A DNA stretch of 62,934 bases from a virus (taxonomy: Duplodnaviria; Caudoviricetes). A program made the translations under genes and the position numbers. The stretch lies in IMG/VR virus record IMGVR_UViG_3300029309_000024, positions 1-62,934 of that record; one strand, given 5' to 3'. This document shows positions 45,201-59,819 of this stretch, piece after piece; within the stretch, counting starts at the first letter, position 1; every line of letters starts with the position of its first letter. The notes below the pieces were generated by a model, which was given only the letters and a program-made list of their open reading frames with translations, did no database searches and had not been told where the DNA came from.

Positions 45201-45699
45201 TGACACTATATTAGCGGGAAGTGGATTTAATGGTGTTATTGCCGCTTCTATAAAAAATGTAGTATTAGAATTAGCAGATGAATTTTCTGAAGATGGTCAA
45301 AAAAATACTAGAGAAGCTTTAATAAGATCAACAGCATTTTCTCCACCTATAAATAGTAAATTAAGAAAAGTTAATTCCGCATTTCAAAGATTTGAAAGAA
45401 AACAAGAAAGAGAAAAAATGGGTGATTTAAGTTTTGAAAATCCTTTTCTTAAATCATCAACGGAACTTATAGAAGCTGCTACTAATTTACCAGCTAATAG
45501 GGTGTTAAGAAAAGTTGAAAATGTTAAGTTAGCTTTAGACAAAGAAACTGATTTTTGGAGATCATTATTTTTAACAATGGGATATAATAAATATGATCTA
45601 TTTATGTATGATTTTCAAAAAGATGGAGAAGACACAACATTTAGAAAAAGAAAACCATTAAAAGAAAGAAAAGAAAGAAAACCATTAAAAACAAATTAA
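39223..45699 (+). CDS. Large internal virion (ejection-like) protein with embedded sigma70 region-2-like segment
   Basis: 2158 aa at the end of the tail module; residues ~750-830 read NNEGLINNIVNRKF...LTREDLLSGVNEIFSEAVKTFNPEKGEFGAYANQLINLRL. Confidence 0.75.
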   Translation: MRELNLAVDSLDPIEDSEENKKRPKDNKTASEITSSGQSLFHPDIESATVPLDEVIVKEKLTPFAKENIEWNNFYNTEERINDLIQQNGEGFIPEATPSFVNISIRDKILKYEDEIKNVNIDQGIGISDEAYQDIFNSVLNNHTALKKVRDGILGTAQKDFNNAVNLRFNEEIKSWNQSEQGQRLTDLQKTYGPGLENLTRGDENRQEIINEYNSLIKGFNDTIVPKHEQIQKDVNEEMNLDSYYNNHVALNKEFANIKNLIGEALTGYNRNLNREALDIDGGLGDFFEKGKLTIKSGKTKNAFIFANEDYKKALNELQNLENKENNDLVEINSISNVSSNDFKFETITVPQGSPIIKATVPVEQARKYFNKVAKEKQKESLSLVADASELDRVISFYDKVEINSLQDFFQNSLKAGAEQLPQMWSMVTSLGTSVYLQESGNNYYEQLEDFVVENEKEVLQQLRETGKQDTKNNRLLAASELGAGNAALSQAVGIVNTGVEALEYGALIAGLGGKFSAMFLKELYEGSMKKLIDAGLTISATSLVSGSQEIIQSGVSTKARQIASDSNRSFFEYTKPKEFKQEFLIGASAILPISIGTISVKEVYSQIQKEISKKPNLKTRDFIVNLQSSLEQSFANQEITEEEYLDGREKIAQLQELDRKIPNTIKGEDKIKAAELLNEKSKLVKEKEQIEQGLSQEIDLELQDIDNKISEIGEKQVTDKKAISEKNIKIAETNKELMAIIKDPNSSETAIKKAKNDIAKNNEGLINNIVNRKFDPTKDTGLTREDLLSGVNEIFSEAVKTFNPEKGEFGAYANQLINLRLPRIFDEFVETKVNEKTGKKEIIGRKDISDIQVEGETTQPSFALKPETKTSLKNKLFTAKLGFDKKLIPGNTNKTFADLFIDAVGKTLQTKLPDITNEKQFKKDFTKKNQAEVIPILQELTKKDKDTGVDNFKIFLDQNFDAIIKQLPQSVINKKYPMLREAVLDEDGRQKREGTKEGKGIFKRVEQEKSDFIDYFTAAEDKVTGKKIGSSTRSDRKQSLLRTIADELSADAALDVIKDKNITDKFKEIQELQGAKVPEDFLDRLVNLIDRGIDYLDRMQNNSSLRVGFVLPELAMAFLKNVLKFLKVGIKAGQEFASSLDSAVEEAAKEPDSQLRNNEEIDAVKKVAAKNFKSEKDLTDAKINKTTKEVGGAIFQDRLIRGLENTIFPYIGAKLSGIKNPELRRIKATNLLSNLTRGISWSADYLKKSKTPKGKKLTKLAFNKNILTELKKVLPKDYFGKDAINIKGNKFYYGSEKIQNIQFTEAGNIIRRGKKAFDDAVERSYQAKQQGLEFLINLRADVEAGIIDENTAEDLIDIAKNNQKGIIRRMALPNILFDYKEGTKYIAEHDSPMNDLIENFIKPYIKGKVNLDKLKNEIDNQRVNYVSVAFNDAIPTEFKDKKSDKRYNNPLREFKGQYTEFNPINLKEKELRERITILTENLIKGDLKNLTEGQAISLGKKANRFKIILPYGAEDLLGLIYPLLRKGKLGDEDLKFFKENLFDPLKDAFNRYDSAKLDGMVQLRAIKEELKEIGLNLQEVAFDNISQDNAIRIHLWSTRGYKIPDGPNDVLSESQIEKANQWVRQNLEALNIKEIIEGAYEGRMYPEPGNNWRGETLTTDLLKSYNVTIRREYFADFFKIVEAMFGERKNNQITGEIANNLTAKLGTNWADAFNNMLTRIETGRHRNMPTDKYSNAFTNWINSAVSTIMFVNTRSVLLQTISNLNFINGTDNNVFSVAAAYGNVKQFVADFHKIFYSDFLKSRRSGLKIDVNLDELSQAAEGNNANRAEAMLAALLKKGFYPTQMADSFAIAFGGAPFLRNRTKTYQKEGFSLEEAEQKAFGDMRELAEESQQSSRQDKISMQQASGIGKLILAFQNYPMQATRIQKRAVQDLLANRGNPVKNVRRILYYGALQNVLFHFLQSAAFYVFINKDELKDEEEEKRLYGILNRMADTILAGSGFNGVIAASIKNVVLELADEFSEDGQKNTREALIRSTAFSPPINSKLRKVNSAFQRFERKQEREKMGDLSFENPFLKSSTELIEAATNLPANRVLRKVENVKLALDKETDFWRSLFLTMGYNKYDLFMYDFQKDGEDTTFRKRKPLKERKERKPLKTN

Positions 45700-45839: not shown

Positions 45840-46015
45840 TGAAAATTAAAGGAATAGATGTTACTTGTTTATCTAAACAACAACAAAAAACAATGAAGGC
45901 TCATTCAAAACATCATACAGGAAAACATATTAAAAATATGGTAAATAAAATGTGTGGTAAAGATAAAATGAGTTTTACTAAATCTCATAAATCTGCAATG
46001 AAAATTGGGAAATAA
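45839..46015 (+). CDS. Tiny basic His-rich protein (58 aa)
   Basis: MKIKGIDVTCLSKQQQKTMKAHSKHHTGKHI...; coupled on both sides. Confidence 0.65.
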   Translation: MKIKGIDVTCLSKQQQKTMKAHSKHHTGKHIKNMVNKMCGKDKMSFTKSHKSAMKIGK

Positions 46016-46290
46016 TGGCTGTTAGAAAAACTAAAGAAGGGGCACAACTTAAACGATGGTTTAAAGAAAAATGGATAGATGTGCGAACTGGCAAGCCTTG
46101 CGGTAGACGTAAAGGTGAAAAGAGGGGCACACCTTACTGTAGACCTAGTAAAAGAATATCTAGTAAAACAGTAAAGACTGCTTCTGAAATGAGTTCATCT
46201 GAAAAAGCTAAAAAGATTAGAGAAAAGAAAAGACTAGGGCAGCCAGCAGGTAAACCTAGAAGAGTTTCAAACACTAAAAGAAGAAAGTAG
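46015..46290 (+). CDS. Small basic protein (DUF5872-like)
   Basis: LKRWFKEKWIDV...CGR...PYCRP. Confidence 0.7.
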   Translation: MAVRKTKEGAQLKRWFKEKWIDVRTGKPCGRRKGEKRGTPYCRPSKRISSKTVKTASEMSSSEKAKKIREKKRLGQPAGKPRRVSNTKRRK

Positions 46291-46291
46291 T

Positions 46292-46753
46292 ATGGAAAAT
46301 ATAAGTAAGCATGTTTCTTATAAAGAAGGCACTCGATCTGTTACAGCTATAAGAAAGGGAATAGAAAATACGCCTACTGATTATCAACTTTCAAACATGG
46401 AAGCAATAGCTCATAATATATTTGAGCCATTACGTGAATGGGTTGGCGGTCCGATAAAAATAAATTCATTTTTTAGATCACCTGAATTGAATAAAGCTAT
46501 TGGGGGGAGTGGTAAATCACAGCATTGTCAAGGCAGAGCAATTGATATAGATGATACATACGGGCATAAAACAAATGCTGAAATGTATGAATACATAAAA
46601 AATAATTTAAATTTTGATCAAATGATATGGGAGTTTGGAACTGATGATAACCCAGATTGGGTGCATATAAGTTATGTAGGTGAAGATGAAAATAGAAATA
46701 GGTGTTTGAAAGCAGAAAGAAAAGATGGAAAAACAGTGTATAGCATTATATAA
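46292..46753 (+). CDS. Peptidase M15A-family endolysin
   Basis: NSFFRSPELNKAIGG...SQHCQGRAID...WVHISY zinc-peptidase motifs. Confidence 0.9.
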   Translation: MENISKHVSYKEGTRSVTAIRKGIENTPTDYQLSNMEAIAHNIFEPLREWVGGPIKINSFFRSPELNKAIGGSGKSQHCQGRAIDIDDTYGHKTNAEMYEYIKNNLNFDQMIWEFGTDDNPDWVHISYVGEDENRNRCLKAERKDGKTVYSII

Positions 46754-46970
46754 AGCGCTTTTATTAGCTTTACTTGTTTTAACATTTACATCTTGTTACA
46801 CTATAAAATCTACAGTTGTAAATACGTTAGATAATACTTGGCCCTGGAATACTATAAAATACAAAGGGAACCAACAATTAGATTCCCTTCATATCTATAA
46901 ACAAAACAAAACTAACCATCACAGCTTAAGCAATCTGGATTCATTGCCTCAGCCGCAATATCGCCTCTGA
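46725..46970 (+). CDS. Putative lipoprotein (spanin-like candidate); 3' end overlaps nrdA
   Basis: Lipobox-like LLALLVLTFTSC immediately after the endolysin. Confidence 0.4.
   Translation: MEKQCIALYKALLLALLVLTFTSCYTIKSTVVNTLDNTWPWNTIKYKGNQQLDSLHIYKQNKTNHHSLSNLDSLPQPQYRL
46855..46890 (-). terminator. Terminator at the convergence of late and replication modules
   Basis: Minus strand GAAGGGAATC-TAATTGTT-GGTTCCCTTT-GTATTTT. Confidence 0.65.
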
Positions 46971-48654
46971 GAACACTTTCAGTTCTCATATAATATAAAG
47001 TTTTAATTCCTTTCTTCCAAGCATCCATATGAACTCTATTAATCCATCTAGGTTCAGCTTGTGAAGGAAACGCAAGATTTAAACTAACAGACTGATCTAT
47101 ATATGTTTGTCTTATTCCCGCTTGATTAACTAATTCTAGTTGATTTATTTCCTTAAACGTTTTAAAAACATTCTTAACAGGTTCTCCTTCATTTTCATTT
47201 AGTCTACCTGCTCCGTCAAAATACCAACCATCTAATTCTTTTATACCCTGTACAGAACCTTTATCTTTTAAAACTTTATCCCAAGTTTTTTGGTTATCTA
47301 TACTTAGCTTTCTAAATAACTTTTTTAATTCGTTATTCTTTCTTATAAATGTACCTTTAGCAGATTGTTCTGTAAATACATTAGCAGCCCAAGGTTCAAC
47401 GCCAGGTGATACATTACCCGATAATTTACTATTTGATACTGTTGGTGCGACTGCTCTTAAATGTGTGTTTCTCATTCCTGTACCTACACACCATAATGGT
47501 TCACCATAAACTTCAGCTAAATCTCTACTAGCTCTTTCAGTTTCTAATTTTAATTGTGAAAATATTTCTCTTGTTTTAAATTGTGCAAGCAATCCTTCAA
47601 AAGCAATTCCTTTTTGCTGTAAGTGTGTATGCCAACCTAATACTCCTAATCCTAGCGCTCTACCTTTTTCAGCAGATCTAACAGCATTATCAAAACCTTT
47701 CATATTTTTAGCACGTTGTATAAATTCAGATAACACTCCATCTAAAAACCACGTAGCATCATATATAAGATCACTATTTTTCCATTCATCATATTTAGCT
47801 AAGTTAACAGAAGATAAACAACATACAAAAGAATGTGACTCATCTGTATGCAATGTAATCTCAGAACATATATTAGTCATATGTACTTTTAAACTATTAT
47901 ACTTATATGCTTTTGGATTAGCTTTATTTGTGTTACCCTTAAACATTATATAAGGTTCACCTGTTGCTTTTCTTTTCTGTAACAACTTAGCCCATTTCTT
48001 TCTAGCCTCTGGTTGCCCTTCTTCAAGTCTTCTCATAAACTTATCACCAACAATAGCACATTGATGTAAATTTAAAGATTGTCTATTAACATCACCTTTA
48101 GGTTCTCTTATTTCTAACCAATCTAAAAAATCAGAGTGATCAATGTTTATATTAACTGATGCAGCGCCTCTTCTTACTGAACCTTGATTTGTAGCAAGTA
48201 TAGTAGAATCATATATTTTACAGAACGGTACAACACCATCTGAAGTTCCGTTACCCGCTATAGTAGCTCCAGCTGGTCTAATCATATTAACACCGATACC
48301 AACACCACCACCGTGTTTCGCAAGTAACATCATTTCAAGATTCTTATTACCTATATCCATAATACTATCAGCAACATCGATACCAAAACAACTTATAGGT
48401 AAACCTCTATCTGTTCCTGTGTTAGATAATACAGGTGAAGCTAAACACAACCATCCTTTCCATATATAATCAAAAAACTTATCTGCAAGTTCAGGTTTAT
48501 ATAATCTTCTAGCAACAGCTTTAGAAACTCTCATATAAGCTTCTTTTGGTGTTTCACCTTGTAATAGATAACCACCTGAAATAGTCTTCTTATATACGTC
48601 CGTATCGCCCCACGTGGGGTAATCTACACCTTTCTTCCAATCGTTATTCCACAT
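46912..48654 (-). CDS. nrdA: Class I ribonucleotide reductase alpha subunit (short, no ATP cone)
   Basis: ISCF, TNICSEI, VAPTVSNS, KTLYY and C-terminal CLSC. Confidence 0.95.
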   Translation of the reverse strand: MWNNDWKKGVDYPTWGDTDVYKKTISGGYLLQGETPKEAYMRVSKAVARRLYKPELADKFFDYIWKGWLCLASPVLSNTGTDRGLPISCFGIDVADSIMDIGNKNLEMMLLAKHGGGVGIGVNMIRPAGATIAGNGTSDGVVPFCKIYDSTILATNQGSVRRGAASVNINIDHSDFLDWLEIREPKGDVNRQSLNLHQCAIVGDKFMRRLEEGQPEARKKWAKLLQKRKATGEPYIMFKGNTNKANPKAYKYNSLKVHMTNICSEITLHTDESHSFVCCLSSVNLAKYDEWKNSDLIYDATWFLDGVLSEFIQRAKNMKGFDNAVRSAEKGRALGLGVLGWHTHLQQKGIAFEGLLAQFKTREIFSQLKLETERASRDLAEVYGEPLWCVGTGMRNTHLRAVAPTVSNSKLSGNVSPGVEPWAANVFTEQSAKGTFIRKNNELKKLFRKLSIDNQKTWDKVLKDKGSVQGIKELDGWYFDGAGRLNENEGEPVKNVFKTFKEINQLELVNQAGIRQTYIDQSVSLNLAFPSQAEPRWINRVHMDAWKKGIKTLYYMRTESVLRGDIAAEAMNPDCLSCDG

Positions 48655-48844
48655 CTTTTTCTTTTTCTTTCATTTGTTCCTCTAATTTCTTAATAGCCTC
48701 TTCATAATCTGGCATATTCTTAATAGTTTGTAAAGTGCCAACCGATAAATCTCTAAGATTAGTTAGCTCTTGTAGAACACCCTGCATTAAAGCACCTAGC
48801 TGTTCTATTTTTTTTCTCATTATAATTAATTCTGATTCTTTCAT
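48644..48844 (-). CDS. Small coiled-coil hypothetical protein between nrdB and nrdA
   Basis: 66-aa ORF, overlaps the nrdA start. Confidence 0.65.
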   Translation of the reverse strand: MKESELIIMRKKIEQLGALMQGVLQELTNLRDLSVGTLQTIKNMPDYEEAIKKLEEQMKEKEKDVE

Positions 48845-48850
48845 AATTAT

Positions 48851-49819
48851 TTACCAAATATCTTCAAAATCTTCTCCTTCATTTGCCTTAGAATAGTCAG
48901 TAGGCCTGATAGCAAAAAAATCGGTGTGAGTAACACCCCCAGTAAGATGATAAAACCAATCCAAAGTATTAGCGCTGGTTGCATCAAATCCGAAATGATT
49001 TGCTTCGTCGTTATACCCGAGTTCGACGATTTTTTCATTTGCTCTTTTCTTTATAAAGTTTTTTAAATCTTCTTTCTTTAAATTCTCAATATCGCCTTGT
49101 TCAAACATTTTATCGATATATTTTAATTCAAGGTCAACCATAATATCAGCAGCTTCTAATACATGATCTTTACATTCTTTTTTAAGTCCTGGAGTTTCTT
49201 CACACATATGTCTAAATAATTGACAACCCATTTTTGAGTGTAGTGATTCATCTCTTACAGACCATTTCATCTGTTGGCCAATACCTTTAAGTAAGTTTCT
49301 AAGCTGAAAGCTATATAAAACAGCAAAAGCAGAATATAACGAAACACCTTCAGCGAAAGCGCTAAAGACTGCCAAACTTTTGGCAATACCAACTTTATCT
49401 TTTCCTTCATAACTAACTAAATTTTCAAACCTATCAGCTGTAGCTGGCTCATGTAAGAAAGCTTCGAAGTCTTCAAGACCTAAAGTTTCATTTAAATAAG
49501 AGTAAGCTACTGCGTGAATAGTTTCTTGTGAACCGAACATCATCGCCATTTGTTGTATTTCATGTTTAGGAAACCAACCTACAACTTTTTGTGTCCAATA
49601 ATCTGATACTGCACATTCTGTTTGTGCAAATCCTAATAATATATTACCTACTAAATGTTTTTCAGCAGGTGTAAGCTTTTCATTCCAGTCTTTTACATCA
49701 GCCGTCATCGGTATTTCTGTGTGTAACCAAAATGCTTGTGCTTGTGGTAACCAACCTTCTGTATAATACTCAGGGTATTCAAAAGGTTTATATGCTATTC
49801 TTTCATCAAATAATCCCAT
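48851..49819 (-). CDS. nrdB: Class I ribonucleotide reductase beta subunit
   Basis: AFW, ETIHAVAY, EGVSLYSAF, RDESLH, TDFFA motifs. Confidence 0.95.
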   Translation of the reverse strand: MGLFDERIAYKPFEYPEYYTEGWLPQAQAFWLHTEIPMTADVKDWNEKLTPAEKHLVGNILLGFAQTECAVSDYWTQKVVGWFPKHEIQQMAMMFGSQETIHAVAYSYLNETLGLEDFEAFLHEPATADRFENLVSYEGKDKVGIAKSLAVFSAFAEGVSLYSAFAVLYSFQLRNLLKGIGQQMKWSVRDESLHSKMGCQLFRHMCEETPGLKKECKDHVLEAADIMVDLELKYIDKMFEQGDIENLKKEDLKNFIKKRANEKIVELGYNDEANHFGFDATSANTLDWFYHLTGGVTHTDFFAIRPTDYSKANEGEDFEDIW

Positions 49820-49821
49820 AA

Positions 49822-49962
49822 TTAATTTTCTTTTATATATTCAAATGCAATATCTACAAATGGTAAATACAATACGTGTAGCACCACATCTTCTTGTTCG
49901 TATGATCTAACTCCTATAAGTATTCCTGGATATAAACCTATAGATATTCTCCATGTTTTCAT
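49822..49962 (-). CDS. Small hypothetical protein (46 aa)
   Basis: MKTWRISIGLYPGILIGVRSY...LYLPFVDI. Confidence 0.6.
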   Translation of the reverse strand: MKTWRISIGLYPGILIGVRSYEQEDVVLHVLYLPFVDIAFEYIKEN

Positions 49963-50105
49963 TATCTTTTTTTTCCTTGTCCTCTATATTTCTTTTTATA
50001 ATACTTGGACGATTTAAGTCCAGATGTTTTTGTTTTAGCGTGCACACCCGGTCTTCTTACTTTTTTCTTTTCTAATACCGTGTACGTTATTCCTCTTCTA
50101 GCCAT
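49962..50105 (-). CDS. Tiny basic protein (47 aa)
   Basis: ...RRPGVHAKTKTSGLKSSKYYKKKYRGQG. Confidence 0.65.
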   Translation of the reverse strand: MARRGITYTVLEKKKVRRPGVHAKTKTSGLKSSKYYKKKYRGQGKKR

Positions 50106-50222
50106 ATACTTTTACATTATATTTTTCATGTATTTCAATAAGTTCATTCCATCTAAGAAATCCTCTATTAACAGCCCACTTCATATGCTTTTCTATTTGT
50201 CTTTCTTTATATTTTAATCTAG

Positions 50223-50678
50223 CTACTTTCTTTTGTTTTTCAATATCTCTATTACTCTGTCGCATTCCTTCTGGTTTTGTGGTTTAAAAAGAGTATAACT
50301 AGGAAACTGTTCAGTAACTAATTTTTTAAATAACTTCCATCTAATAGGAAATGATTCATTAGGTCTACCTTTAGTTTCTATAATAAAATTTTCACCAATA
50401 AAATCTGGTGTATACTTTATAGGTAATATTCTTTTTTCACCTCTGTTCATAAAATCACCTTTTGAATTTGCTTGTCTTTCATAAACTTCATTTTCAAAAT
50501 GAAATCCATTAAGTAAAACAAAAGTTTCGCCCTCGTACTTAGCTTTAATTTTTGCTTTCTTTAAAGCCATGTACATATACTTCTCCAATCCTGAAGCAAA
50601 GTTATGACCATCATAACTAATCTTCTTTGATTGTACCGGACCTTTCTTTCTTCTTACAGGTCTTCTTCTTTTATACAT
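50223..50678 (-). CDS. PD-(D/E)XK endonuclease (T7 endonuclease I-like resolvase)
   Basis: FASGLE...YTPDF...IIETKG. Confidence 0.85.
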   Translation of the reverse strand: MYKRRRPVRRKKGPVQSKKISYDGHNFASGLEKYMYMALKKAKIKAKYEGETFVLLNGFHFENEVYERQANSKGDFMNRGEKRILPIKYTPDFIGENFIIETKGRPNESFPIRWKLFKKLVTEQFPSYTLFKPQNQKECDRVIEILKNKRK

Positions 50679-50914
50679 TATTCTTTTGCTTTAAGATCTC
50701 TTAAATAACATTCTTCAATCTCATCTCTTAATACTCTTCTTGTCTTCTCTATATAGTTGACAGCATCCATTAATTCTTCTTGTATGTGTTGAAGCCATGT
50801 ATCTAAAGGTTGGTCATCTTTATGTAAAGTAATACCATACTTTTTATAACCTACATCAGATCTGTTAATAAACTTTTCTACTACTGATTTAATTACCTCG
50901 TCTCTTATTTTCAT
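50678..50914 (-). CDS. Small all-alpha NTP pyrophosphatase-like protein
   Basis: GYKKYG...WLQHIQEELMDAVNY (EExxD metal motif). Confidence 0.6.
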   Translation of the reverse strand: MKIRDEVIKSVVEKFINRSDVGYKKYGITLHKDDQPLDTWLQHIQEELMDAVNYIEKTRRVLRDEIEECYLRDLKAKE

Positions 50915-51672
50915 TATTCGTCTTTTACAAATGTTCCGTTTACCATTCTCCCAGTTCTACTAGAAATCTCATCATAAGCAGACTGTATGCAAGTTTCAAT
51001 TGAAACGCCGTTAAGTTCGGCGAGATTAGTAAGAACAACAACGCTATCACCAATAGCATCGATAATACCATCTTTATCGTTCTTAAGAAGGGATTGTGAT
51101 AATTCTCCTGTTTCTTCATATAATTTTATTAATTGTGTTTTAGAATCTCCTTTTGTTATTAGATCCCTTTCGTTTGCCCACTCTCTTATTAATTCAAATA
51201 AGGATATTTTTTCGTATGTAGAGTCGGCTAAAAATGCCTCGTAATAAGCTTTATTGTATATGTAGCTTCTGTCTTTATCATACATTGAAACATATGAATT
51301 AGCTTTAATCCATTCAATTGTTTCTTCTGATACTTCAAAACTACCTAAAGCTGTTTCCCATTTAAATCCTAAATTCTTTTTTAACTCTTTAGCTAATTGT
51401 TTTTTAGGGTATGGAAATGTTGAGGTTTGCTCTGTTGCGTTTATCTTCATTTTATTTACTAAATTTTTATATAATGTTCTATCTACTTTGTACCCATAAA
51501 ATTTTTGAAGCTCTATTTCTCGTGTTGATATATAATTAATATCAGACGAAGAATCTAGAACTTCATATTCTTTAGGCTTATAACCCTGCACAAGCGTAAC
51601 CCTGTTATTTAAATCACGTGTTACACCTATTTTTTTACCAGGAATATGATAAATATAATATACTTCTTCCAT
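50914..51672 (-). CDS. MazG-like NTP pyrophosphohydrolase with N-terminal extra domain
   Basis: C-terminal WANERDL...KLYEETGEL...DAIGD...AYDEI..RTG; N-terminal YYIYHIPGKKIGVT. Confidence 0.85.
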   Translation of the reverse strand: MEEVYYIYHIPGKKIGVTRDLNNRVTLVQGYKPKEYEVLDSSSDINYISTREIELQKFYGYKVDRTLYKNLVNKMKINATEQTSTFPYPKKQLAKELKKNLGFKWETALGSFEVSEETIEWIKANSYVSMYDKDRSYIYNKAYYEAFLADSTYEKISLFELIREWANERDLITKGDSKTQLIKLYEETGELSQSLLKNDKDGIIDAIGDSVVVLTNLAELNGVSIETCIQSAYDEISSRTGRMVNGTFVKDE

Positions 51673-51679
51673 GTTATTT

Positions 51680-52513
51680 TTATTTTCCCACAGATAATTC
51701 TGCTTTAATAGCAGGACTGTGATTGTATCCTTCTAATGTTATAGTATCTTTATTAGGAATAAATACAAAATCATTTGCACCTTCTCTTAATTTAATACCA
51801 CCCCAACTCATTTTAAGTTTAGGTAAATCGTATTGCTTTGCTGCAATATACTCTTCAGCTTGTTCTAAATGATTATTATATAAATGACAATCACCTAAGC
51901 TAGCTATAAGAGTTCCTGGTTTATAACCTGCACCGTCTGCTATCATTTCTAATAGCAAACCGTACATAGTTATATCATATGGTAATCCAAGAAATACATC
52001 AGCACTTCTTTGTTGCCACATTAAGTCCAGTTTATCATCGTTACAAAATAACTGGAAGTTATAATGACAAGGAGGGAGTACCATATCGTGAAGATCGTGA
52101 ACGTTCCAAGCTGATACCATGAGTCGTCTACTGGTGGGATTTTCCCTAAGCTCCTGTAAAACCATTTGTAATTGATCGATGCCATTAGCATGGCGCCACT
52201 GGTGGCCGTAAACGGGACCAAGTGTTCTATCAGTCCGATTAGATCTTTGATAATCAGGAATCCAATACTTGACACCGTTGTCAATAAGATAGTCCAAGTC
52301 GCTTCTGCCTTCGACAATCCAAAATAATTCTGTTTTTGCATGATTAAATATAATTTTCTTTTTTGTTAGTATAGGAAAGCCAAGTTTCATATCATGATAT
52401 AACATTCTACCAAATACTGCTCTTGTACCTGTACCTGTTCTATCTGCTTTTTCTTTACCTCCGTGCAATATGCCGGACATTAATCCTGTGTATTCAGTTT
52501 CTATATTTCTCAT
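51680..52513 (-). CDS. thyA: Thymidylate synthase homolog with Asn-to-Asp specificity switch (putative dCMP methylase)
   Basis: DRTGTGT, LGPVYGHQWR, LPPCH, QRSADVFLGLPYDI, GDCHLYNNH; likely start MRNIE at 52513. Confidence 0.85.
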   Translation of the reverse strand: MRNIETEYTGLMSGILHGGKEKADRTGTGTRAVFGRMLYHDMKLGFPILTKKKIIFNHAKTELFWIVEGRSDLDYLIDNGVKYWIPDYQRSNRTDRTLGPVYGHQWRHANGIDQLQMVLQELRENPTSRRLMVSAWNVHDLHDMVLPPCHYNFQLFCNDDKLDLMWQQRSADVFLGLPYDITMYGLLLEMIADGAGYKPGTLIASLGDCHLYNNHLEQAEEYIAAKQYDLPKLKMSWGGIKLREGANDFVFIPNKDTITLEGYNHSPAIKAELSVGK

Positions 52514-52796
52514 AATAATATTCACATGTTTTATACATTTGTTCGTGACACTCTCCTGCTTTATAGCAATCAGGTGAAACATTTACTTTCTCTCCTTTTT
52601 TATATGGGCCTATAGCAATTGTAATATGCCAGCATTTAGGACTTGAACCTGGAGTTTCAGGTTTGTACGATATTCTTATATTATTTTTAACGCACCAAGT
52701 CCAAGCTTCTAGTTGTTGTATAGTCGGAAAGTATGTGCCCATTACACCTTTCTTTCTTTTTCTTCCAACATCTAAAGGCCTTACTGATCCTGCCAT
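52494..52796 (-). CDS. Hypothetical protein
   Basis: 100-aa ORF between the primase-helicase and the thyA-like gene. Confidence 0.65.
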   Translation of the reverse strand: MAGSVRPLDVGRKRKKGVMGTYFPTIQQLEAWTWCVKNNIRISYKPETPGSSPKCWHITIAIGPYKKGEKVNVSPDCYKAGECHEQMYKTCEYYYEKYRN

Positions 52797-52797
52797 A

Positions 52798-54519
52798 TTA
52801 TTCCCAAGGCATTATTGTATTTTCCGGTATAGCTTCAGTATAAGGAACGTAACAACCAGATTTTGGTTCCCACGTAAAGAATGATTCACCGCCATTCTCT
52901 CCTAAGTTTTGAAACTTTACTTTTAATACTTTTACCTTTGTTGTTTTATTTTCATAATCTCTATGAACTAATAAACCGTGGTAACTAGCGTCATACCATT
53001 CACCACCACCTTTAATGTTATACATCGTAGGTTCCTCTATTTTACCATTAGCGTCTTTATACATTTTAGTTGGGTGAGCAACTATTATAACTAATACATC
53101 ATATTTTTTAGCAAACATTTCAATCTTAGTTAAGTATTCTAATGTGTATACATTGACATCTCCATTGTTAGAATCTAAATCTCTAACTTTATTAAATGGA
53201 TCAATTACAAGGCATTTGATACCTTTACGTTTTACAAGCTCAGCACCTTTTTTTAATACTGAATCTAATGTATAACGTTCCATATCGATAAAATAAAAGT
53301 TATCGTTTATATATTCTGCTGTTTGGCTCCATTTATCATTACCAATATCCTTTCTAGATGGCATACCTTGCCAAGCTTTTCTCATTAACTTATGAGCGTG
53401 TAAATATGTAGGAGCATTTTCTGGTGATGCGAAAGCTGTTTTCCAACTATATTGTTGGTTATAACCTATAACCATTTGATCAACAAAGTCAGACTTTCCA
53501 GAAGATGGAATACCTGTAACAGTTATAAACTGTCCGGTGTATGTAGAAAATATTTCATCAAAATTACGTAAACCTATTTGGAACCCCGGTTTAAAACCGT
53601 TTTCAACAAAGTCAGTAACTTCGTTTTCAATATCTTTAAAAGTTGTGACATTTTCAAGAGGTACTGGCCTCGCGTCGTTGATAGTTTTTGATAATCTTTC
53701 AGATCCATATTTTAATAAATATTCGTTTGCGTCTTTACAATCTTCAAATGAAACTGTATAACAAACTTCGGCGCCTAGCCTTCTTATTAGTTCTTGTTTT
53801 AATGCTTGTCCTGGCTCATCATTATCAACAGCTATAATTATCTTTTCAATGCCTGTAAAGTAATCTATACAGTTATCTAAGTAATCTAAATTATTTGTAC
53901 CTAATGTTGCGCCGTTTGGAACTGATATAGCGTTAGATATACCTGCTTCGTGTAAAGCTAATACATCTATTTCACCTTCAGTTATAACACAAAAAGAATG
54001 GCCGACAATAGCGTCAATATTATAAAAGATTTTTTCAGCACCTTTATAAAGCTTGAAGTTCTTGCGACCATCTCTGTATTTTATATTAATGAGTTCACCA
54101 CCCATCATATAATTAAACTTAATTGTGTTCTCTTCTTTAGAGGTTTGTGGCATAAACTCAGGACCCTCGGAAACATTTAAGTCTTCAAGAGTCTGCTGAG
54201 ATATACCTCTACTGTTAAACCACTCTACAATCTTTGAACCTACTGGTTTGTGGGTCTTAGTAGAAAAGTCTGGACGTACATAAACTTTGTCAGCCATTCC
54301 TTTTCTTTTAAAGGTATGTAGTTGAAATGTTTTATTGCAGTTATGACAAGTACCTAATCCTCTCTCCCAATCTAACGAAGCACACTTCTTTTTCTTATTC
54401 TCAGGTTTGCGTGTATGTGAACACGTAGGACATACGCTTTCAGCAGCGCCAACCTTTAAATCATATTGGTTAAACTGGTCGATCTCGAAACCATTAATTT
54501 CGGAATTGTTTACTTGCAT
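52798..54519 (-). CDS. Primase-helicase (T7 gp4 / Twinkle-like)
   Basis: Zn finger CPTC...CHNC, TOPRIM ITEGEID/DND, Walker A GIPSSGKS, LVIDP, IVAHP. Confidence 0.93.
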   Translation of the reverse strand: MQVNNSEINGFEIDQFNQYDLKVGAAESVCPTCSHTRKPENKKKKCASLDWERGLGTCHNCNKTFQLHTFKRKGMADKVYVRPDFSTKTHKPVGSKIVEWFNSRGISQQTLEDLNVSEGPEFMPQTSKEENTIKFNYMMGGELINIKYRDGRKNFKLYKGAEKIFYNIDAIVGHSFCVITEGEIDVLALHEAGISNAISVPNGATLGTNNLDYLDNCIDYFTGIEKIIIAVDNDEPGQALKQELIRRLGAEVCYTVSFEDCKDANEYLLKYGSERLSKTINDARPVPLENVTTFKDIENEVTDFVENGFKPGFQIGLRNFDEIFSTYTGQFITVTGIPSSGKSDFVDQMVIGYNQQYSWKTAFASPENAPTYLHAHKLMRKAWQGMPSRKDIGNDKWSQTAEYINDNFYFIDMERYTLDSVLKKGAELVKRKGIKCLVIDPFNKVRDLDSNNGDVNVYTLEYLTKIEMFAKKYDVLVIIVAHPTKMYKDANGKIEEPTMYNIKGGGEWYDASYHGLLVHRDYENKTTKVKVLKVKFQNLGENGGESFFTWEPKSGCYVPYTEAIPENTIMPWE

Positions 54520-54548
54520 TTAATTAAATTTATTTCTAGTTGTGGTTA

Positions 54549-54857
54549 TTAAAATGGTAAATCATCTTGTGCAACTTGCGGTTGAGCTGGAGCTGCTTGT
54601 TGTTGATCTCTTTTTACCGGTTGAGGAAACTCCCCGTCCGTCCATACTACAGAAGCATTACCTAAAAAAGTTCTAGGTTCCTTAGCTTCTCTCTCTTCTT
54701 TACTTTGAGCGATAGCTACGGGTCCGTGATTACCATAAGCGTCTACGTCATTGTTAACAGTAATAGTAATTGGTAAATACTTACCTTTCTTTCCTGTAAT
54801 AACTTTAGACTTATCTATAGCAGTCAGGTTTATACTTGTTTTAATTATTCCTGCCAT
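54549..54857 (-). CDS. Putative single-stranded DNA-binding protein
   Basis: Acidic DDLPF C-terminus; lies between recombination and primase genes. Confidence 0.7.
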   Translation of the reverse strand: MAGIIKTSINLTAIDKSKVITGKKGKYLPITITVNNDVDAYGNHGPVAIAQSKEEREAKEPRTFLGNASVVWTDGEFPQPVKRDQQQAAPAQPQVAQDDLPF

Positions 54858-54859
54858 TA

Positions 54860-55027
54860 TTAATATGTTTGTAATTGTGAAAACATTCTTTGTAACTGTG
54901 CTTTATTAGCACCTGTTGTTCTTCTTAAGTTATCAACTGCTTTTACATGTGATTGATTACCGTAGAAGTTTCTTTCGCTTGTAGTCATACCTGTTACGCT
55001 ACAAGTTCTTTTTTTTGTTCTAGCCAT
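54860..55027 (-). CDS. Small hypothetical protein (55 aa)
   Basis: MARTKKRTCSVTGMTTSERNFYGNQSHVKAVDNLRR... Confidence 0.6.
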   Translation of the reverse strand: MARTKKRTCSVTGMTTSERNFYGNQSHVKAVDNLRRTTGANKAQLQRMFSQLQTY

Positions 55028-55036
55028 AATATTAAA

Positions 55037-55780
55037 TTAAAGTGTTTTAGTTAAAAAAAATTGTGATGGATCAAAGCCATCTGTTTTAAAGAATAGTTCA
55101 TATGCTTCGGTAGCTCTAACAACTTTATCTCTACCTGATTCATAGAATTCATCCGAACAATCAAATATTCCTATCTGATGTGTTGTTTTATCCATTACGA
55201 TAAATAACATGTCATAACCGAACATCTCTTTATATATCCAAGCTTGACTGTCATAGTTGTATTTATATGCTGAATATTTAAATTTACTTATATCAGCACT
55301 TGTTTTGAGGTCTACTATAAGTTGCTCGTCCTCATTTATTATATCGGCTTTGCCTTTCCACATATTACCAAACAACCTTACTATCCCGGGTTGTTCGTAT
55401 TTGACACGTGCGCCTTTTCTTGAACCTTGTATATAATCCTTACATACATTATTCTTTAGCAACTTATCTCGCATTAAATTAATCTTATCAGCCTCGTGCT
55501 GTAATAAGCATAATTCACCATCGGAAATTTCCTTATACTTTTTTGTATTCCTTGTGCTAGATTCGATGATTTTATATTTATCAATCTTATCTGGTTCAAG
55601 TATACTTGTATGGAAATAACCACCAACTAAAAAGGCAGACGTCATTTGAGACGGTGCCTTAAAGCTTAATGGATCTTTTAATAATGCGGAAATATCTGAG
55701 TTACTTAAATACTGTTTACCAAATTTACCGTAGTAATGGTTATCGTCTTTAAGCTTCTCTAATACCTCTTCTTTTATCAT
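55037..55780 (-). CDS. PD-(D/E)XK exonuclease (RecE/ExoVIII, DUF3799-like)
   Basis: LSNSD, FHTSILEP, KGKAD, VDLKT, YDSQAWIY. Confidence 0.85.
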   Translation of the reverse strand: MIKEEVLEKLKDDNHYYGKFGKQYLSNSDISALLKDPLSFKAPSQMTSAFLVGGYFHTSILEPDKIDKYKIIESSTRNTKKYKEISDGELCLLQHEADKINLMRDKLLKNNVCKDYIQGSRKGARVKYEQPGIVRLFGNMWKGKADIINEDEQLIVDLKTSADISKFKYSAYKYNYDSQAWIYKEMFGYDMLFIVMDKTTHQIGIFDCSDEFYESGRDKVVRATEAYELFFKTDGFDPSQFFLTKTL

Positions 55781-56314
55781 TTATAGTGTTGTTAATTGTT
55801 TTTCTTGCTCAGGTGTCATTGCATACTTCTTTTTAATTGAAGCAACTTTACCTCCTGATTTAACATATTCTTGTGCTTGCTTAAGCTGTGCTGCAGTCAT
55901 AGTTTGGCTACCATGTGTATTAGTAGCGTCTGAGTCTGCTGTATCATCTATAAGTAATAAATTACCTAAAGCATACTTTTTACCATAAGATGAAGCTGAA
56001 CCAAATTGTTGAGGTGTTTGCATACCTTTTTGATTCAAATCAATTCCAACCACAGCTGTAGCTGAAACAAATGAATTCAGGTCTTCACAGTCATGAATTC
56101 GTGCTTTTGATTGAATAATAGGAACATTGGCCCCCATACCCATTTGTAATTCCTCATGTATTACGAAATAAACTTTATATTTATCGCAAAATGGTTTAAG
56201 TGCTTCAAGAATATCTTCGGCTGATCTGAAGTTATATTTGCCGAATGAATTATAACGCGATTTTTTCGCTTTGAATTGTTGTTGAATTAAACTTAATTTT
56301 TCGTGTATTGTCAT
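55781..56314 (-). CDS. erf: ERF-family ssDNA annealing protein
   Basis: YNFRSAEDILEALKP...QQFGSASSYGKKYAL...DDTADSD. Confidence 0.9.
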   Translation of the reverse strand: MTIHEKLSLIQQQFKAKKSRYNSFGKYNFRSAEDILEALKPFCDKYKVYFVIHEELQMGMGANVPIIQSKARIHDCEDLNSFVSATAVVGIDLNQKGMQTPQQFGSASSYGKKYALGNLLLIDDTADSDATNTHGSQTMTAAQLKQAQEYVKSGGKVASIKKKYAMTPEQEKQLTTL

Positions 56315-56319
56315 TGTGT

Positions 56320-56334
56320 ATATATATTATTACG
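56320..56334 (-). promoter_or_regulatory. Candidate middle/late promoter (CGTAAT plus AT tract)
   Basis: CACGTAATAATATATATAC just upstream of erf. Confidence 0.4.
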
Positions 56335-56349
56335 TGTTATTTTAACTAT

Positions 56350-56673
56350 TTAATTACCAAGTCTATAGAATAACCAAACTTGTTGTGATCTTGGTTTTGT
56401 TATTACTAAAGTGGTATTCCCGATGTAGAATAAAAGATTATACTCATCTTCTACATCATCTCTAATTACTCTTAGCTCCCCGTCAACTAATTCTAGTTTG
56501 CCAGACGCTAATATGCCTTTTGTATTTCTCCTAGTGAATGTTTCGTTAGGTTGAATTATTAAAAGTTCTTGATCTAAGTTATACCAATTGCCGTATAATT
56601 CTTGCGGTATTGGTTCAGACTTTTGCGTATAGCAAAAGCTTGTCATTAATAAAAATAAAATTAATATTCTCAT
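56350..56673 (-). CDS. Secreted lipocalin-like beta protein
   Basis: Signal peptide, LYGNW motif. Confidence 0.6.
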   Translation of the reverse strand: MRILILFLLMTSFCYTQKSEPIPQELYGNWYNLDQELLIIQPNETFTRRNTKGILASGKLELVDGELRVIRDDVEDEYNLLFYIGNTTLVITKPRSQQVWLFYRLGN

Positions 56674-57425
56674 AAAAAATCTAATACTTGTGATTTATCT
56701 ACTGTTTGTATTAAAGTATCAATTGCGTCTCTTTTAATTTGCGAAACGCGAACGTAGTTGGCAGTGCCTTCTATGTTAAGTTTCTGTGCAATTTCTTTTG
56801 CACTCATTTTATCACAGTCAAGTCCGTAGCTCATACGTAGTACATCATATTCTCTATCTGATAGATTTGTTTTCATAAGCCCTAATAGATACGCGTTTAT
56901 TATATCTATATTATACTTTTCCGATTTATCTGGAATTTGCATAAGAGCATTGTCCTCTTCATTTTCATACTCAACATCTATACTAGAAAATATACTGTTA
57001 AAAAACATTTGTACTATCTTCTTGTCGCCACCATCTGATTTTCTAATTTCATTAAGCTTGTATTCAGGTATTCTCATATTACCTCGATTAATATCAATCT
57101 CTCTTCTTATTGCACCTCGAATACGTTTCGACAAAAATGATTTAAGTGTTTTTTCTGGGTGCTCAGATTCGTTTATAACATTCCAATCAATACGATCGAC
57201 TGCTAAGATTAAACCTTCCGCGCCAGACTGTAATAAATCATTAATACTTAGAACGCCGGAAGCTTGGTCTGAAGTAGAAAAAGAACGTGCTACGGACTCA
57301 ACTAGTGGTAAATTTTCAATTATTATTGTATCTCTCTCTGAGTATTTACCCTCAGAGGCTAAATTTAAACTGTCTTCTAAATCAAGTTTATACCTGATAT
57401 AGTTTTGGACGTTATATCTTTTCAT
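56670..57425 (-). CDS. Phage sigma70-family RNA polymerase sigma factor
   Basis: Region 2 (NLPLVESVAR...DLLQSGAEGLILAVD...RIRGAI) and region 4 (LSDREYDVLRMSYGL...SAKEIA...RVSQIK). Confidence 0.9.
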   Translation of the reverse strand: MKRYNVQNYIRYKLDLEDSLNLASEGKYSERDTIIIENLPLVESVARSFSTSDQASGVLSINDLLQSGAEGLILAVDRIDWNVINESEHPEKTLKSFLSKRIRGAIRREIDINRGNMRIPEYKLNEIRKSDGGDKKIVQMFFNSIFSSIDVEYENEEDNALMQIPDKSEKYNIDIINAYLLGLMKTNLSDREYDVLRMSYGLDCDKMSAKEIAQKLNIEGTANYVRVSQIKRDAIDTLIQTVDKSQVLDFL

Positions 57426-59731: not shown

Positions 59732-59745
59732 AATTTATAATTTAG

Positions 59746-59819
59746 TTGCGACGGTCAGATTCGAACTGACGACCTCTAGGTTATGAGCCTAGCGAGATTC
59801 CTAACTTCTCCACGTCGCT
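59746..59819 (-). tRNA. tRNA-Met (CAT), initiator-type
   Basis: AGCGACG TG GAGA-AGTTAGGAA-TCTC G CTAGG CTCATAA CCTAG AGGTC GTCAG TTCGAAT CTGAC CGTCGCA A; 1:72 mismatch; CCA not encoded. Confidence 0.92.

What the first reader, a model, noticed from the sequence alone, without database searches (positions are those of the whole stretch)
50678..52513. ThyA with dCMP-type Asn-to-Asp switch plus two NTP pyrophosphatases: candidate 5-methylcytosine genome-substitution pathway
Seen: the motif is QRSADVFLGLPYDI (GAT codon at 51974-51976, checked in the DNA) where canonical ThyA has QRSxDxxLGxPFNI. Established: this Asn (E. coli N177, L. casei N229) selects dUMP, the N-to-D mutant methylates dCMP, and T4 dCMP hydroxymethylase has Asp there. 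The rest of the protein looks like classical ThyA (DRTGTGT, YGxQWR, PPCH, HLYxNH), which favours reductive methylation over hydroxymethylation. Directly downstream are a MazG-like pyrophosphatase fusion and a small EExxD all-alpha protein, suited to remove dCTP and supply dCMP. Inference: virion DNA carries 5mC or 5hmC by precursor substitution as an anti-restriction measure. Unusually, no phage DNA polymerase or dNMP kinase is recognisable, so host enzymes would have to be used.
Basis: partly seen in the sequence, partly recalled or inferred. Interest (0 to 1): 0.85.

Follow-up and report, generated by a model that had tools for sequence, protein, structure and literature searches.

The report
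Phage dCMP-methylating thymidylate synthase homolog
A marine phage carries a thymidylate-synthase-like enzyme whose key residue is switched so that it should methylate dCMP instead of dUMP, a known way for phages to build 5-methylcytosine into their DNA, here found in a large uncultured lineage.

Summary
The ThyA-family gene (51680-52513, minus strand) reads QRSADVFLGLPYDI, with GAT (Asp) at 51974-51976 where E. coli ThyA has Asn177. The Asp is not a one-off. It is kept in 119 of 120 closest proteins, 80 of 80 IMG/VR loci and 10 of 10 close MAG loci. All 70 cellular ThyA loci fetched in the same scan have Asn.

By published residue rules (Asp177 = dCMP; non-acidic 143 = methyl, not hydroxymethyl; Asp169 = not 5-hydroxy), the enzyme is predicted to be a 5-methyl-dCMP synthase. 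It would work like that of Xanthomonas phage Xp12, though it shares only 28% identity and is an independent branch.

The gene sits in a fixed operon with a T5orf172-like/MazG pyrophosphohydrolase fusion. The second "pyrophosphatase" (78 aa) is not supported.

The 98%-complete genome and 30 relatives have no recognisable DNA polymerase A, deaminase or ThyX (PolB, DHFR, C5-methylase and kinases were searched in the window only).

Asp177 ThyA homologs, their 5mdC product and their link with PRA-PH/MazG genes are already published. This is therefore a new member of a known kind. Whether virion DNA carries 5mC is untested.

The parts
51680..52513 (-). ThyA-family enzyme with Asp at the Asn177 position (277 aa from Met24). 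Predicted dCMP C5-methyltransferase (5-methyl-dCMP synthase).
   Evidence: PF00303 at E 2.2e-81. Signature residues are tabulated. Asp is kept in 119/120, 80/80 and 10/10 relatives.
51974..51976 (-). GAT codon for the Asp that replaces Asn177.
   Evidence: Read directly in the DNA. Among 80 loci the codon is GAT in 78 and GAC in 2.
50914..51672 (-). 252-aa fusion. The N-terminal part is T5orf172/GIY-YIG-like. The C-terminal part is a MazG/PRA-PH-type all-alpha NTP pyrophosphohydrolase domain (residues about 155-252). The inferred role is as a dCTP-to-dCMP supplier.
   Evidence: PF03819 at 24.1 bits (cut-off 22) and PF01503 at 21.1 bits (cut-off 21.3). phrog_1992 at 2.2e-34. Profile against PDB 1vmg at 4.7e-7. 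For the N-terminal part, Atlas clusters carry T5orf172 in 11-48% of members, which is a lead only. The fusion is full length in 79 of 80 loci.
50678..50914 (-). Conserved 78-aa protein of unknown function. Its start overlaps the MazG-fusion stop by 1 nt. It is not shown to be a pyrophosphatase.
   Evidence: Present in 79 of 80 loci. Invariant residues include Q45, E46, E47, L48, D50, A51 and Y54. No Pfam, PDB or profile match.
50223..50678 (-). DUF1064 / resolvase-like protein. Its start overlaps the 78-aa gene's stop by 1 nt.
   Evidence: PF06356 at 2.2e-6. phrog_190, Holliday junction resolvase. Present in 79 of 80 loci.
52494..52796 (-). Conserved 100-aa protein of unknown function, between the primase-helicase and ThyA.
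   Evidence: tblastn hits in 78 of 80 loci. No Pfam or PHROG match.
52798..54519 (-). Primase-helicase (Toprim + DnaB_C), the upstream neighbour in the conserved module.
   Evidence: Pfam. Present in 78 of 80 loci in the same order.
46912..49819 (-). Ribonucleotide reductase beta (48851-49819) and alpha (46912-48654), the downstream end of the nucleotide-metabolism module.
   Evidence: PF00268 at 5.5e-58 and PF02867 at 1.9e-87. Same order in the loci.

Best explanation
The gene encodes a folate-dependent dCMP C5-methyltransferase (5-methyl-dCMP synthase).

Proposed chemistry. The enzyme uses the ThyA mechanism: Cys146 attacks C6, methylene is transferred from CH2-THF, and hydride transfer yields a methyl group and dihydrofolate. 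Asp177 in place of Asn selects cytosine over uracil.

Proposed pathway. The gene is co-transcribed with a MazG-type pyrophosphohydrolase, which is inferred to convert dCTP to dCMP. That step would both feed the methylase and deplete unmodified dCTP. The phage ribonucleotide reductase lies just downstream. Host CMP/NDP kinases would then make 5-methyl-dCTP, and the host replicase, recruited by the phage primase-helicase, would incorporate it. Phage DNA would thus carry 5mC in place of some or all C as protection against restriction.

Shown versus inferred.
- Shown here: the residue pattern, its conservation, the gene order, and the absence of recognisable deaminase, polymerase and kinase genes.
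- Inferred: the substrate, the product, the MazG substrate, the use of host kinases, and the modification of virion DNA.
For: Residue pattern.
- Asp at position 177 together with L143, D169, C146, H147, Y94, R21, R126/R127, R166, H207 and Y209 is kept in 120-121 of 121 clade sequences. A ThyA-type C-terminal tail (IKAELSVGK) is present.

Published rules and experiments (passages or sections read).
- N177D switches ThyA to dCMP and gives 5mdCMP. In viromes, Asp177 is enriched in contigs with modified cytosine (PMC8670742).
- A hydrophobic residue at 143 goes with methyl products and Asp/Glu with hydroxymethyl products. D169N marks 5-hydroxy-dCMP synthases (PMC13326640, sections 24 and 28).
- The hydroxymethylase signature is an acidic residue three positions before the catalytic Cys, a Ser two before the Tyr, and no C-terminal tail (PMC6400193). 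None of these is present here.
- 5 of 7 metagenomic Asp177 enzymes, plus the Xp12 enzyme, made 5mdC in vivo (bioRxiv 10.1101/2024.12.05.627091).

Comparison with Xp12.
- The Xp12 enzyme also reads PYD (RSSDLFVGLPYDV).
- Its upstream neighbour is a PRA-PH protein at 6.6e-15. That is the same enzyme pairing as here.

Selection and context.
- The Asp is held in 80/80 loci with synonymous codon variation.
- The clade is one branch with support 100 and a stem of 0.56, nested among Asn-type ThyA.
- The order primase-helicase > ThyA > MazG fusion > 78-aa > DUF1064 > RNR is kept in all 80 loci. Gaps are 7 nt or 1-nt overlaps.
- Each of 30 related genomes has exactly one ThyA-family gene. None of the 30, nor the window's own record (31 in all), has ThyX. 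The Asp-type enzyme is therefore not a spare copy.
Against: - There are no direct data on the DNA. All 20 public runs that hold the stretch are kept as contigs only.
- The Asp177 rule failed for 2 of 7 enzymes in the published in vivo test. Those tests also co-expressed T4 dNMP kinase. No kinase is recognisable here. However, the T4 gp1 query also finds nothing in Xp12.
- His147 is kept in 121 of 121 sequences, whereas position 147 was the second most differential site between modified and unmodified contigs. Xp12 has Pro there and T4 gp42 has Thr.
- The genome and its relatives still avoid some C-containing palindromes: GATATC 0 observed against 16 expected, ATGCAT 1 against 11.5, CATG at ratio 0.67. 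Blanket protection of cytosine might be expected to relax this avoidance.
- MazG-fusion homologs are common in Staphylococcus and Streptococcus phages, for which I know of no reported C modification (recalled; no search was run on this). The MazG substrate is therefore pure inference.
- No phage DHFR is present to recycle dihydrofolate, unlike Xp12.
Confidence: 0.6

Rival explanations
1. The enzyme makes 5-methyl-dCMP, or both dTMP and 5-methyl-dCMP, but mainly as a thymidylate supply. A host dCMP deaminase would convert 5m-dCMP to dTMP for this 68% A+T genome. MazG would serve to drain dCTP/dGTP pools. Virion DNA would be little or not at all methylated.
For: - There is no phage kinase to push 5m-dCMP to the triphosphate.
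- The genome is 27-38% G+C and has no other ThyA or ThyX.
- In Xp12-type phages, part of the methylated pool is indeed deaminated to thymidine nucleotides (bioRxiv discussion).
- Avoidance of C-containing palindromes persists.
- His147, a dUMP-contacting residue, is retained.
Against: - No deaminase is present in this genome or in 30 relatives, so the route would depend wholly on the host.
- An Asn177 enzyme would make dTMP directly. Yet Asp is held in 209 of 210 clade sequences, one transition away from Asn.
- The clade shows further fixed changes (I79Y, F176Y, a remodelled 80-93 loop and a longer C-terminus). These suggest adaptation to a new substrate.
Confidence: 0.2
2. The enzyme acts on dCMP but gives another C5 product, either 5-hydroxymethyl-dCMP or 5-hydroxy-dCMP, possibly as a base for further modification.
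For: - T4 gp42 also has Asp at this position.
- 2 of 7 Asp177 enzymes predicted to be methylases did not give 5mdC in the published assay.
- The 80-93 loop, including the Trp83 position, differs from canonical ThyA. Trp83 helps to exclude solvent.
Against: - The hydroxymethylase signature is absent. Leu, not Asp/Glu, lies three residues before Cys in 120 of 121 sequences. There is no Ser two before Tyr94. The C-terminal tail is present.
- The hydroxylase marker D169N is absent: Asp169 is kept in 121 of 121 sequences.
- No Pfam or PHROG family of any kind, glycosyltransferases and other group-transfer enzymes included, matched the roughly 60 ORFs scanned as proteins. Not every small ORF was scanned.
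Confidence: 0.1
3. It is an ordinary thymidylate synthase, and the Asp is functionally tolerated.
For: - It is 40-50% identical to true ThyA.
- It passes the cut-off of the NCBIfam equivalog TIGR03284 (247.2 against 108.35 bits).
- It sits next to ribonucleotide reductase, as phage ThyA genes often do (the last point is recalled).
Against: - Mutagenesis cited shows that this single change reverses pyrimidine preference.
- All 70 cellular ThyA loci in the same scan have Asn.
- The Asp defines a monophyletic, purely viral or MAG-contig clade.
- The score lies below the cut-offs of the six other NCBIfam ThyA equivalogs with a closely comparable profile, for example 278.6 against 327.
Confidence: 0.05

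Closest known systems
Xanthomonas phage Xp12 thymidylate-synthase homolog (5-methyl-dCMP synthase) with its PRA-PH neighbour
   Same: - Asp at position 177, with Tyr just before it (PYD).
- Catalytic Cys, Arg166, Ser167 and Asp169 are kept.
- An all-alpha NTP pyrophosphohydrolase gene lies directly beside it.
- The Xp12 enzyme gave 5mdC in vivo, and Xp12 DNA has C fully replaced by 5mC.
   Different: - Only 28% identical, and on a separate long branch.
- Xp12 has Asn143 and Pro147 where this clade keeps Leu143 and His147.
- Xp12 also encodes a dCMP-family deaminase, DHFR and DNA polymerase I. This lineage has no deaminase or polymerase A (also absent in 30 relatives), and the window has no DHFR.
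- The Xp12 pyrophosphohydrolase is not fused to a T5orf172-like domain.
Engineered E. coli N177D / L. casei N229D thymidylate synthase (dCMP methylase)
   Same: A canonical ThyA scaffold with a single Asn-to-Asp change that gives dCMP methylation (as cited). This clade is nested among canonical ThyA and keeps His147, Leu143 and the C-terminal tail.
   Different: This is a natural lineage under long-term selection. It carries further fixed changes: I79Y, F176Y, C168A, a remodelled loop after Trp80, and a C-terminus longer by 1-2 residues.
T4 gp42 dCMP hydroxymethylase with gp56 dCTPase
   Same: The pathway logic is the same. A ThyA homolog with Asp at the 177 position works together with an all-alpha NTP pyrophosphohydrolase superfamily enzyme that turns dCTP into dCMP.
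   Different: gp42 has Asp three residues before the Cys, lacks the C-terminal tail and makes hydroxymethyl. T4 has its own dNMP kinase, polymerase and glucosyltransferases.
RB69 gp48 / DLP3 gp80 5-hydroxy-dCMP synthases
   Same: ThyA homologs with Asp177 that act on dCMP.
   Different: They carry D169N and L143E and use a flavin and O2. In this clade Asp169 and Leu143 are conserved.
Canonical ThyA (dUMP to dTMP)
   Same: Same fold family, all catalytic residues and a folate-closing C-terminal tail. 40-50% identity.
   Different: Asn177 is replaced by Asp throughout the clade.

Membership tests
Thymidylat_synt (PF00303) superfamily | Significant match to the family profile over its full length | tested here: met
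   E 2.2e-81, 273.4 bits, profile positions 2-266 of 266.
Canonical dUMP-specific thymidylate synthase | Asn at E. coli position 177 | tested here: not met
   Asp, encoded by GAT at 51974-51976. Asp in 120 of 121 clade sequences.
Canonical dUMP-specific thymidylate synthase | Score above the curated equivalog cut-offs | tested here: inconclusive
   Above the cut-off for TIGR03284 (247.2 against 108.35). Below it for NF002497 (278.6 against 327) and for the six other models.
dCMP C5-methyltransferase (5-methyl-dCMP synthase, Xp12 type) | Asp at position 177 together with the catalytic Cys146 | tested here: met
dCMP C5-methyltransferase (5-methyl-dCMP synthase, Xp12 type) | Non-acidic residue at 143 and Asp kept at 169, which exclude hydroxymethyl and hydroxy products under the published rules | tested here: met
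   Leu143 in 120 of 121 and Asp169 in 121 of 121 sequences. The rules come from PMC13326640, sections 24 and 28.
dCMP C5-methyltransferase (5-methyl-dCMP synthase, Xp12 type) | Makes 5-methyl-dCMP and dihydrofolate from dCMP and CH2-THF | not testable with these tools
   Needs an enzyme assay or in vivo LC-MS.
dCMP hydroxymethylase (T4 gp42 type) | Asp/Glu three residues before the catalytic Cys, Ser two residues before the catalytic Tyr, and no C-terminal tail | tested here: not met
   The sequence reads VLPPCH (Leu) and GPVYG (Pro), and the tail IKAELSVGK is present. The signature comes from PMC6400193.
5-hydroxy-dCMP synthase (RB69 gp48 type) | Asn at position 169 | tested here: not met
   Asp169 in 121 of 121 sequences.
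MazG / PRA-PH all-alpha NTP pyrophosphohydrolase (gene 50914-51672) | Profile match and acidic metal-binding motifs | tested here: met
   PF03819 at 24.1 bits against a cut-off of 22. phrog_1992 at 2.2e-34. PDB 1vmg at 4.7e-7. E186, E187, E190, D205 and D209 are invariant in 30 sequences. The second motif reads DAIGD, as in Xp12's DALVD.
MazG / PRA-PH all-alpha NTP pyrophosphohydrolase (gene 50914-51672) | dCTP-specific hydrolysis to dCMP | not testable with these tools
   No substrate information can be drawn from the sequence. hhalign against T4 gp56 and the Xp12 PRA-PH protein is not significant.
NTP pyrophosphohydrolase (78-aa gene 50678-50914) | Any sequence or profile likeness to MazG, PRA-PH or dUTPase_2 | tested here: not met
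   - No Pfam family at E up to 0.01 for the protein itself.
- Only scattered chance-level hits for 30 members.
- No credible PDB match.
- hhalign probability below 1% against the MazG fusion and the Xp12 protein.
- The fold prediction never finished.

The most novel reading that the evidence does not exclude
An abundant, still uncultured lineage of about 60-kb marine podophages, probably of Flavobacteriaceae, replaces cytosine by 5-methylcytosine with only two dedicated phage genes. One is an independently evolved Asn177Asp ThyA. The other is a T5orf172-MazG fusion. Phosphorylation, folate recycling and DNA synthesis would be left to the host. This would be the most minimal pre-replicative base-substitution system known. 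It would also mean that a noticeable share of marine viral DNA is fully C5-methylated.
Probability: 0.4. Interest if true: 0.6.

Novelty: new member of a known kind. Interest (0 to 1): 0.4.

Why it matters
If the prediction holds, a widespread marine phage lineage has 5mC-substituted DNA. The stretch is held in 20 runs from 11 studies, hundreds of database clusters belong to the clade, and no cultured member was found.

Consequences would include:
- Effects on restriction and other nuclease defences in Flavobacteriia.
- Effects on methylation-aware sequencing of viromes (EM-seq, bisulfite, nanopore).
- Evidence that base substitution can run on host kinases and a host polymerase.

The clade is also a natural, independently derived counterpart of the classic N177D/N229D specificity-switch mutants. 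It would add a compact enzyme pair to the toolbox for making 5mC DNA in vivo. The principle itself is already established, however, so the gain is in breadth rather than in kind.

Tried and rejected
- Fold of the 78-aa protein.
- Fold of the MazG fusion.
- Megablast of 46000-58000 against GenBank phages found no match.
- Cultured relatives by large terminase were searched for ThyA. The protein query found none in Elemovirus NC_055853 or MW202828 (0 of 2). PF00303 found none in Cellulophaga phi19:3, phi38:1, Calle_3 or Tenacibaculum Gundel_1 (0 of 4), with Xp12 as a positive control. No culturable model was found.
- Public runs. All 20 holders are contigs, so they give no information on modification.
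- Laying four runs. Near-identical contigs of three runs cover the Asp codon, and none of the 40 difference rows shown falls on 51974-51976. A further 203 rows were not shown, so this is not a test.
- Protein Atlas for the 78-aa protein returned only unnamed viral clusters.
- P0022, the one Asn sequence among the 120. Its N-terminal part reads like the window protein and its C-terminal part like canonical ThyA. I set it aside as a chimera or recombinant, not as a counter-example.
- Palindrome statistics are suggestive only, because the hosts and their restriction enzymes are unknown.
- Literature searches (listings only) showed no paper on this marine clade. Supplementary files of the eLife and bioRxiv papers, which hold the tested enzyme sequences, were not open. 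A member of this clade may already have been assayed there.
Full report
**What is there**

The window is a virus record of 62,934 bases, rated 98% complete. On the minus strand, an ORF at 51680-52582 (300 aa) contains QRSADVFLGLPYDI. The DNA reads ...cca tat gat ata, with GAT at 51976-51974.

The protein matches Pfam Thymidylat_synt over the whole profile (E 2.2e-81). Its best solved relatives are true thymidylate synthases (E 4.5e-62 and below). In both printed alignments the target has PFNI where the query has PYDI. An alignment with E. coli ThyA, fetched, places the Asp at position 177.

**More than chance**

The Asp is a clade character, not a one-off:
- 119 of the 120 best database proteins have it.
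- All 80 IMG/VR loci, at 57-96% identity, have it.
- All 10 genome/MAG loci at 57% identity or more have it. All 70 loci at 44% or less, which are chromosomal ThyA genes mostly of Burkholderiales, have Asn.

Asn is one transition away from Asp. Even so, the codon is GAT in 78 and GAC in 2 of 80 loci, and the neighbouring Tyr codon varies freely (TAT 47, TAC 33).

The one exception, P0022, reads like the window protein up to about the motif and like canonical ThyA after it. I take it for a chimera or recombinant.

**Which reaction**

The published residue rules are as follows:
- Asp177 selects dCMP. The mutagenesis is cited, and an association with modified virome contigs is shown, in PMC8670742 (passages).
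- A bulky hydrophobic residue at 143 goes with methyl products, and Asp/Glu with hydroxymethyl products. Asn at 169 marks flavin-dependent 5-hydroxy-dCMP synthases (PMC13326640, sections 24 and 28).
- The T4 hydroxymethylase signature is an acidic residue three positions before the Cys, a Ser two positions before the Tyr, and no C-terminal tail (PMC6400193, passages).

This protein and 120 relatives keep Leu143 (120/121), Asp169, Cys146, His147, Tyr94, Arg21, Arg126/127, Arg166, Ser167, His207 and Tyr209 (all 121/121). They also keep a ThyA-type tail, IKAELSVGK, 1-2 residues longer than in E. coli.

The pattern therefore predicts 5-methyl-dCMP. The prediction has experimental backing in kind: the Xp12 enzyme and 5 of 7 metagenomic Asp177 enzymes gave 5mdC in E. 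coli when co-expressed with T4 dNMP kinase (bioRxiv 10.1101/2024.12.05.627091, passages). Two of the seven did not, so the rule is not infallible.

**Relation to the known enzymes**

The Xp12 enzyme (record fetched) is only 28% identical. It shares the PYD triplet but has Asn143 and Pro147.

Among the 150 best representatives of 50%-identity clusters, 128 have Asn, 18 Asp, 1 Ser and 3 lack the motif.

I built a FastTree tree of 101 rows. Sixty-three representatives were dropped for length over 335 aa or for lacking the motif, and deep support is weak. On this tree:
- The window's clade is 12 rows, all Asp, with support 100 and a stem of 0.56, nested among Asn-type ThyA.
- The Asp/Asn state needs at least 10 changes, of which at least 3 are forced by well-supported branches.
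- Xp12 and T4 gp42 sit elsewhere on long branches.

This is therefore an independent recruitment of the same switch. It comes with its own fixed changes: I79Y, F176Y, C168A, and a remodelled loop after Trp80 in which the Trp83 position is lost or becomes Tyr, depending on the alignment.

**Neighbours**

In all 80 loci the order is primase-helicase > ThyA > 252-aa protein > 78-aa protein > DUF1064 > 46-aa > RNR beta > (66-aa) > RNR alpha, as far as each contig reaches. A 100-aa ORF between the primase-helicase and ThyA is also conserved (78 of 80 loci). In the window the ThyA-to-DUF1064 genes are separated by 7 nt or overlap by 1 nt, so they form one operon.

The 252-aa protein:
- It has a C-terminal MazG/PRA-PH domain. 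Scores are PF03819 at 24.1 bits (cut-off 22), PF01503 at 21.1 bits (cut-off 21.3), phrog_1992 at 2.2e-34, and a profile match to PDB 1vmg at 4.7e-7.
- The acidic residues EExGE and DAxGD are invariant.
- The N-terminal 150 residues look T5orf172/GIY-YIG-like. This is a lead only.
- In Xp12 the gene beside the synthase is a PRA-PH protein (6.6e-15), followed by a dCMP-family deaminase and DHFR. T4 gp56 dCTPase is in the related dUTPase_2 family. The pairing of an Asp177 ThyA homolog with an all-alpha pyrophosphohydrolase is thus shared with known systems. Its co-occurrence in modified virome contigs is published.
- Its substrate here is inferred. Homologs of this fusion's residues 55-252 are common in Staphylococcus and Streptococcus phages.

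The 78-aa protein:
- It is strongly conserved, including LQEELMDAxxY.
- It shows no likeness to any pyrophosphatase.
- Homologs occur in Elemovirus phages that lack ThyA.
- Its fold could not be obtained.

**What the phage lacks**

Six-frame family searches of the window found none of the following:
- dCMP deaminase
- DNA polymerase A or B
- C5 DNA methyltransferase
- DHFR
- thymidylate-kinase family

A T4 gp1 query found nothing here. It also found nothing in Xp12, and it did find T4 itself. P-loop patterns hit only the helicase and chance sites.

In 30 related records, 14 of them at least 90% complete:
- deaminase is found in 0 of 30
- polymerase A in 0 of 30
- ThyX in 0 of 31 (the window included)
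- exactly one ThyA-family gene in 30 of 30

About 60 ORFs were scanned as proteins without finding glycosyltransferases or other modification enzymes. Some ORFs under 100 aa were not scanned as proteins.

**Host and spread**

The large terminase finds 87 phage records: 68 Flavobacterium, 15 Cellulophaga, 2 Tenacibaculum, 1 Maribacter and 1 uncultured. Six of the ten close MAG contigs are labelled Flavobacteriaceae, Flavobacteriales or Bacteroidetes. The six cultured or complete relatives tested have no ThyA. The stretch is held in 20 marine, seawater or aquatic runs from 11 studies.

**Most likely mechanism, and doubts**

The proposed pathway runs as follows:
1. Phage RNR and the host supply dCDP/dCTP.
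2. The MazG domain returns dCTP to dCMP (inferred).
3. The Asp177 enzyme makes 5m-dCMP and dihydrofolate (predicted from residues).
4. Host kinases and the host replicase put 5mC into phage DNA (inferred).

Points against this reading:
- There are no data on the DNA itself.
- No kinase is recognisable, although published assays added one.
- His147 is retained.
- There is no phage DHFR.
- C-containing palindromes are still avoided. In the window GATATC is 0 observed against 16 expected, ATGCAT 1 against 11.5 and GGTACC 4 against 12.5. In 66 more distant loci pooled, the ratios are GATATC 0.49, ATGCAT 0.43, GAATTC 0.44 and CATG 0.58.

I put 0.6 on the methylase-to-5mC-DNA reading, 0.2 on a mainly thymidylate-supplying role, 0.1 on another C5 product and 0.05 on an ordinary ThyA.

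**Novelty**

The principle, the diagnostic residue, the product and the pyrophosphohydrolase link are all in print. The new elements are the lineage (large, marine, uncultured, independently derived) and its stripped-down gene set. My four literature searches (listings only) showed no paper on it. The supplements that list the assayed enzymes were not visible.

Verdict: a new member of a known kind, of moderate interest.

Noticed in passing
protein P0022: This is the only Asn-type sequence among the 120 closest proteins, and it looks chimeric. Its first ~170 residues are near-identical to the window's protein, including the clade-specific YWIPDYQRSNRTDRTLG loop. From GVPFNIASYALL onward it reads like canonical ThyA and ends in IKAKMAI. 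It could be an assembly chimera or a natural recombinant.
   Followed up: partly
whole window; loci L001-L080: Some palindromes are strongly under-represented. In the window GATATC is 0 observed against 16 expected, ATGCAT 1 against 11.5, GGTACC 4 against 12.5, and CATG and GATC are at about 0.67. In 66 more distant relatives pooled, GATATC is at 0.49, ATGCAT 0.43, GAATTC 0.44 and CATG 0.58. This suggests continuing restriction pressure at C-containing sites.
   Followed up: partly
window 58432-58926 (-): A 164-aa protein matches Pyr_excise, the T4 endonuclease V-type pyrimidine-dimer DNA glycosylase (PF03013, 2.4e-6; phrog_624, 4.2e-51). Xp12 has an HhH-GPD glycosylase-family gene next to its nucleotide cluster. 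Any link to base modification is unexplored.
   Followed up: no
window 29774-36922 (+) and 39223-45699 (+): There are two giant proteins of 2382 and 2158 aa. The first has a crAss-type muzzle protein C-terminal domain (PF25729, 1.3e-7). The second has no Pfam match. The phage also encodes a GroEL-like chaperonin (3882-5444, phrog_5725 at 1.6e-131) and a sigma-70-type factor (56670-57425).
   Followed up: no
proteins P0121-P0270: Asp at position 177 is scattered through the ThyA family. It occurs in 18 of the 150 nearest 50%-identity cluster representatives (16 PFD, 1 PHD, 1 PAD), on several branches. The switch has evidently arisen repeatedly.
   Followed up: partly
loci L095, L096, L099: Three contigs of one Flavobacteriaceae MAG each carry a different member of the clade, at 57-62% identity. 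One contig is 117,301 bases, about twice the phage genome size. It could be a concatemer, a prophage or a binning artefact. Other clade contigs are binned with Thiothrix, Rickettsiales and Acidimicrobiaceae MAGs, which is probably mis-binning.
   Followed up: no
window 59745-59819 (-): There is a tRNA-Met (CAT) gene in the early region. An Elemovirus relative also carries a tRNA-Met near its 78-aa homolog.
   Followed up: no
window 52513-52582: The mechanical ORF extends 23 codons upstream of the conserved Met24 start and overlaps the end of the conserved 100-aa ORF (52494-52796). This upstream extension is probably not translated.
   Followed up: partly
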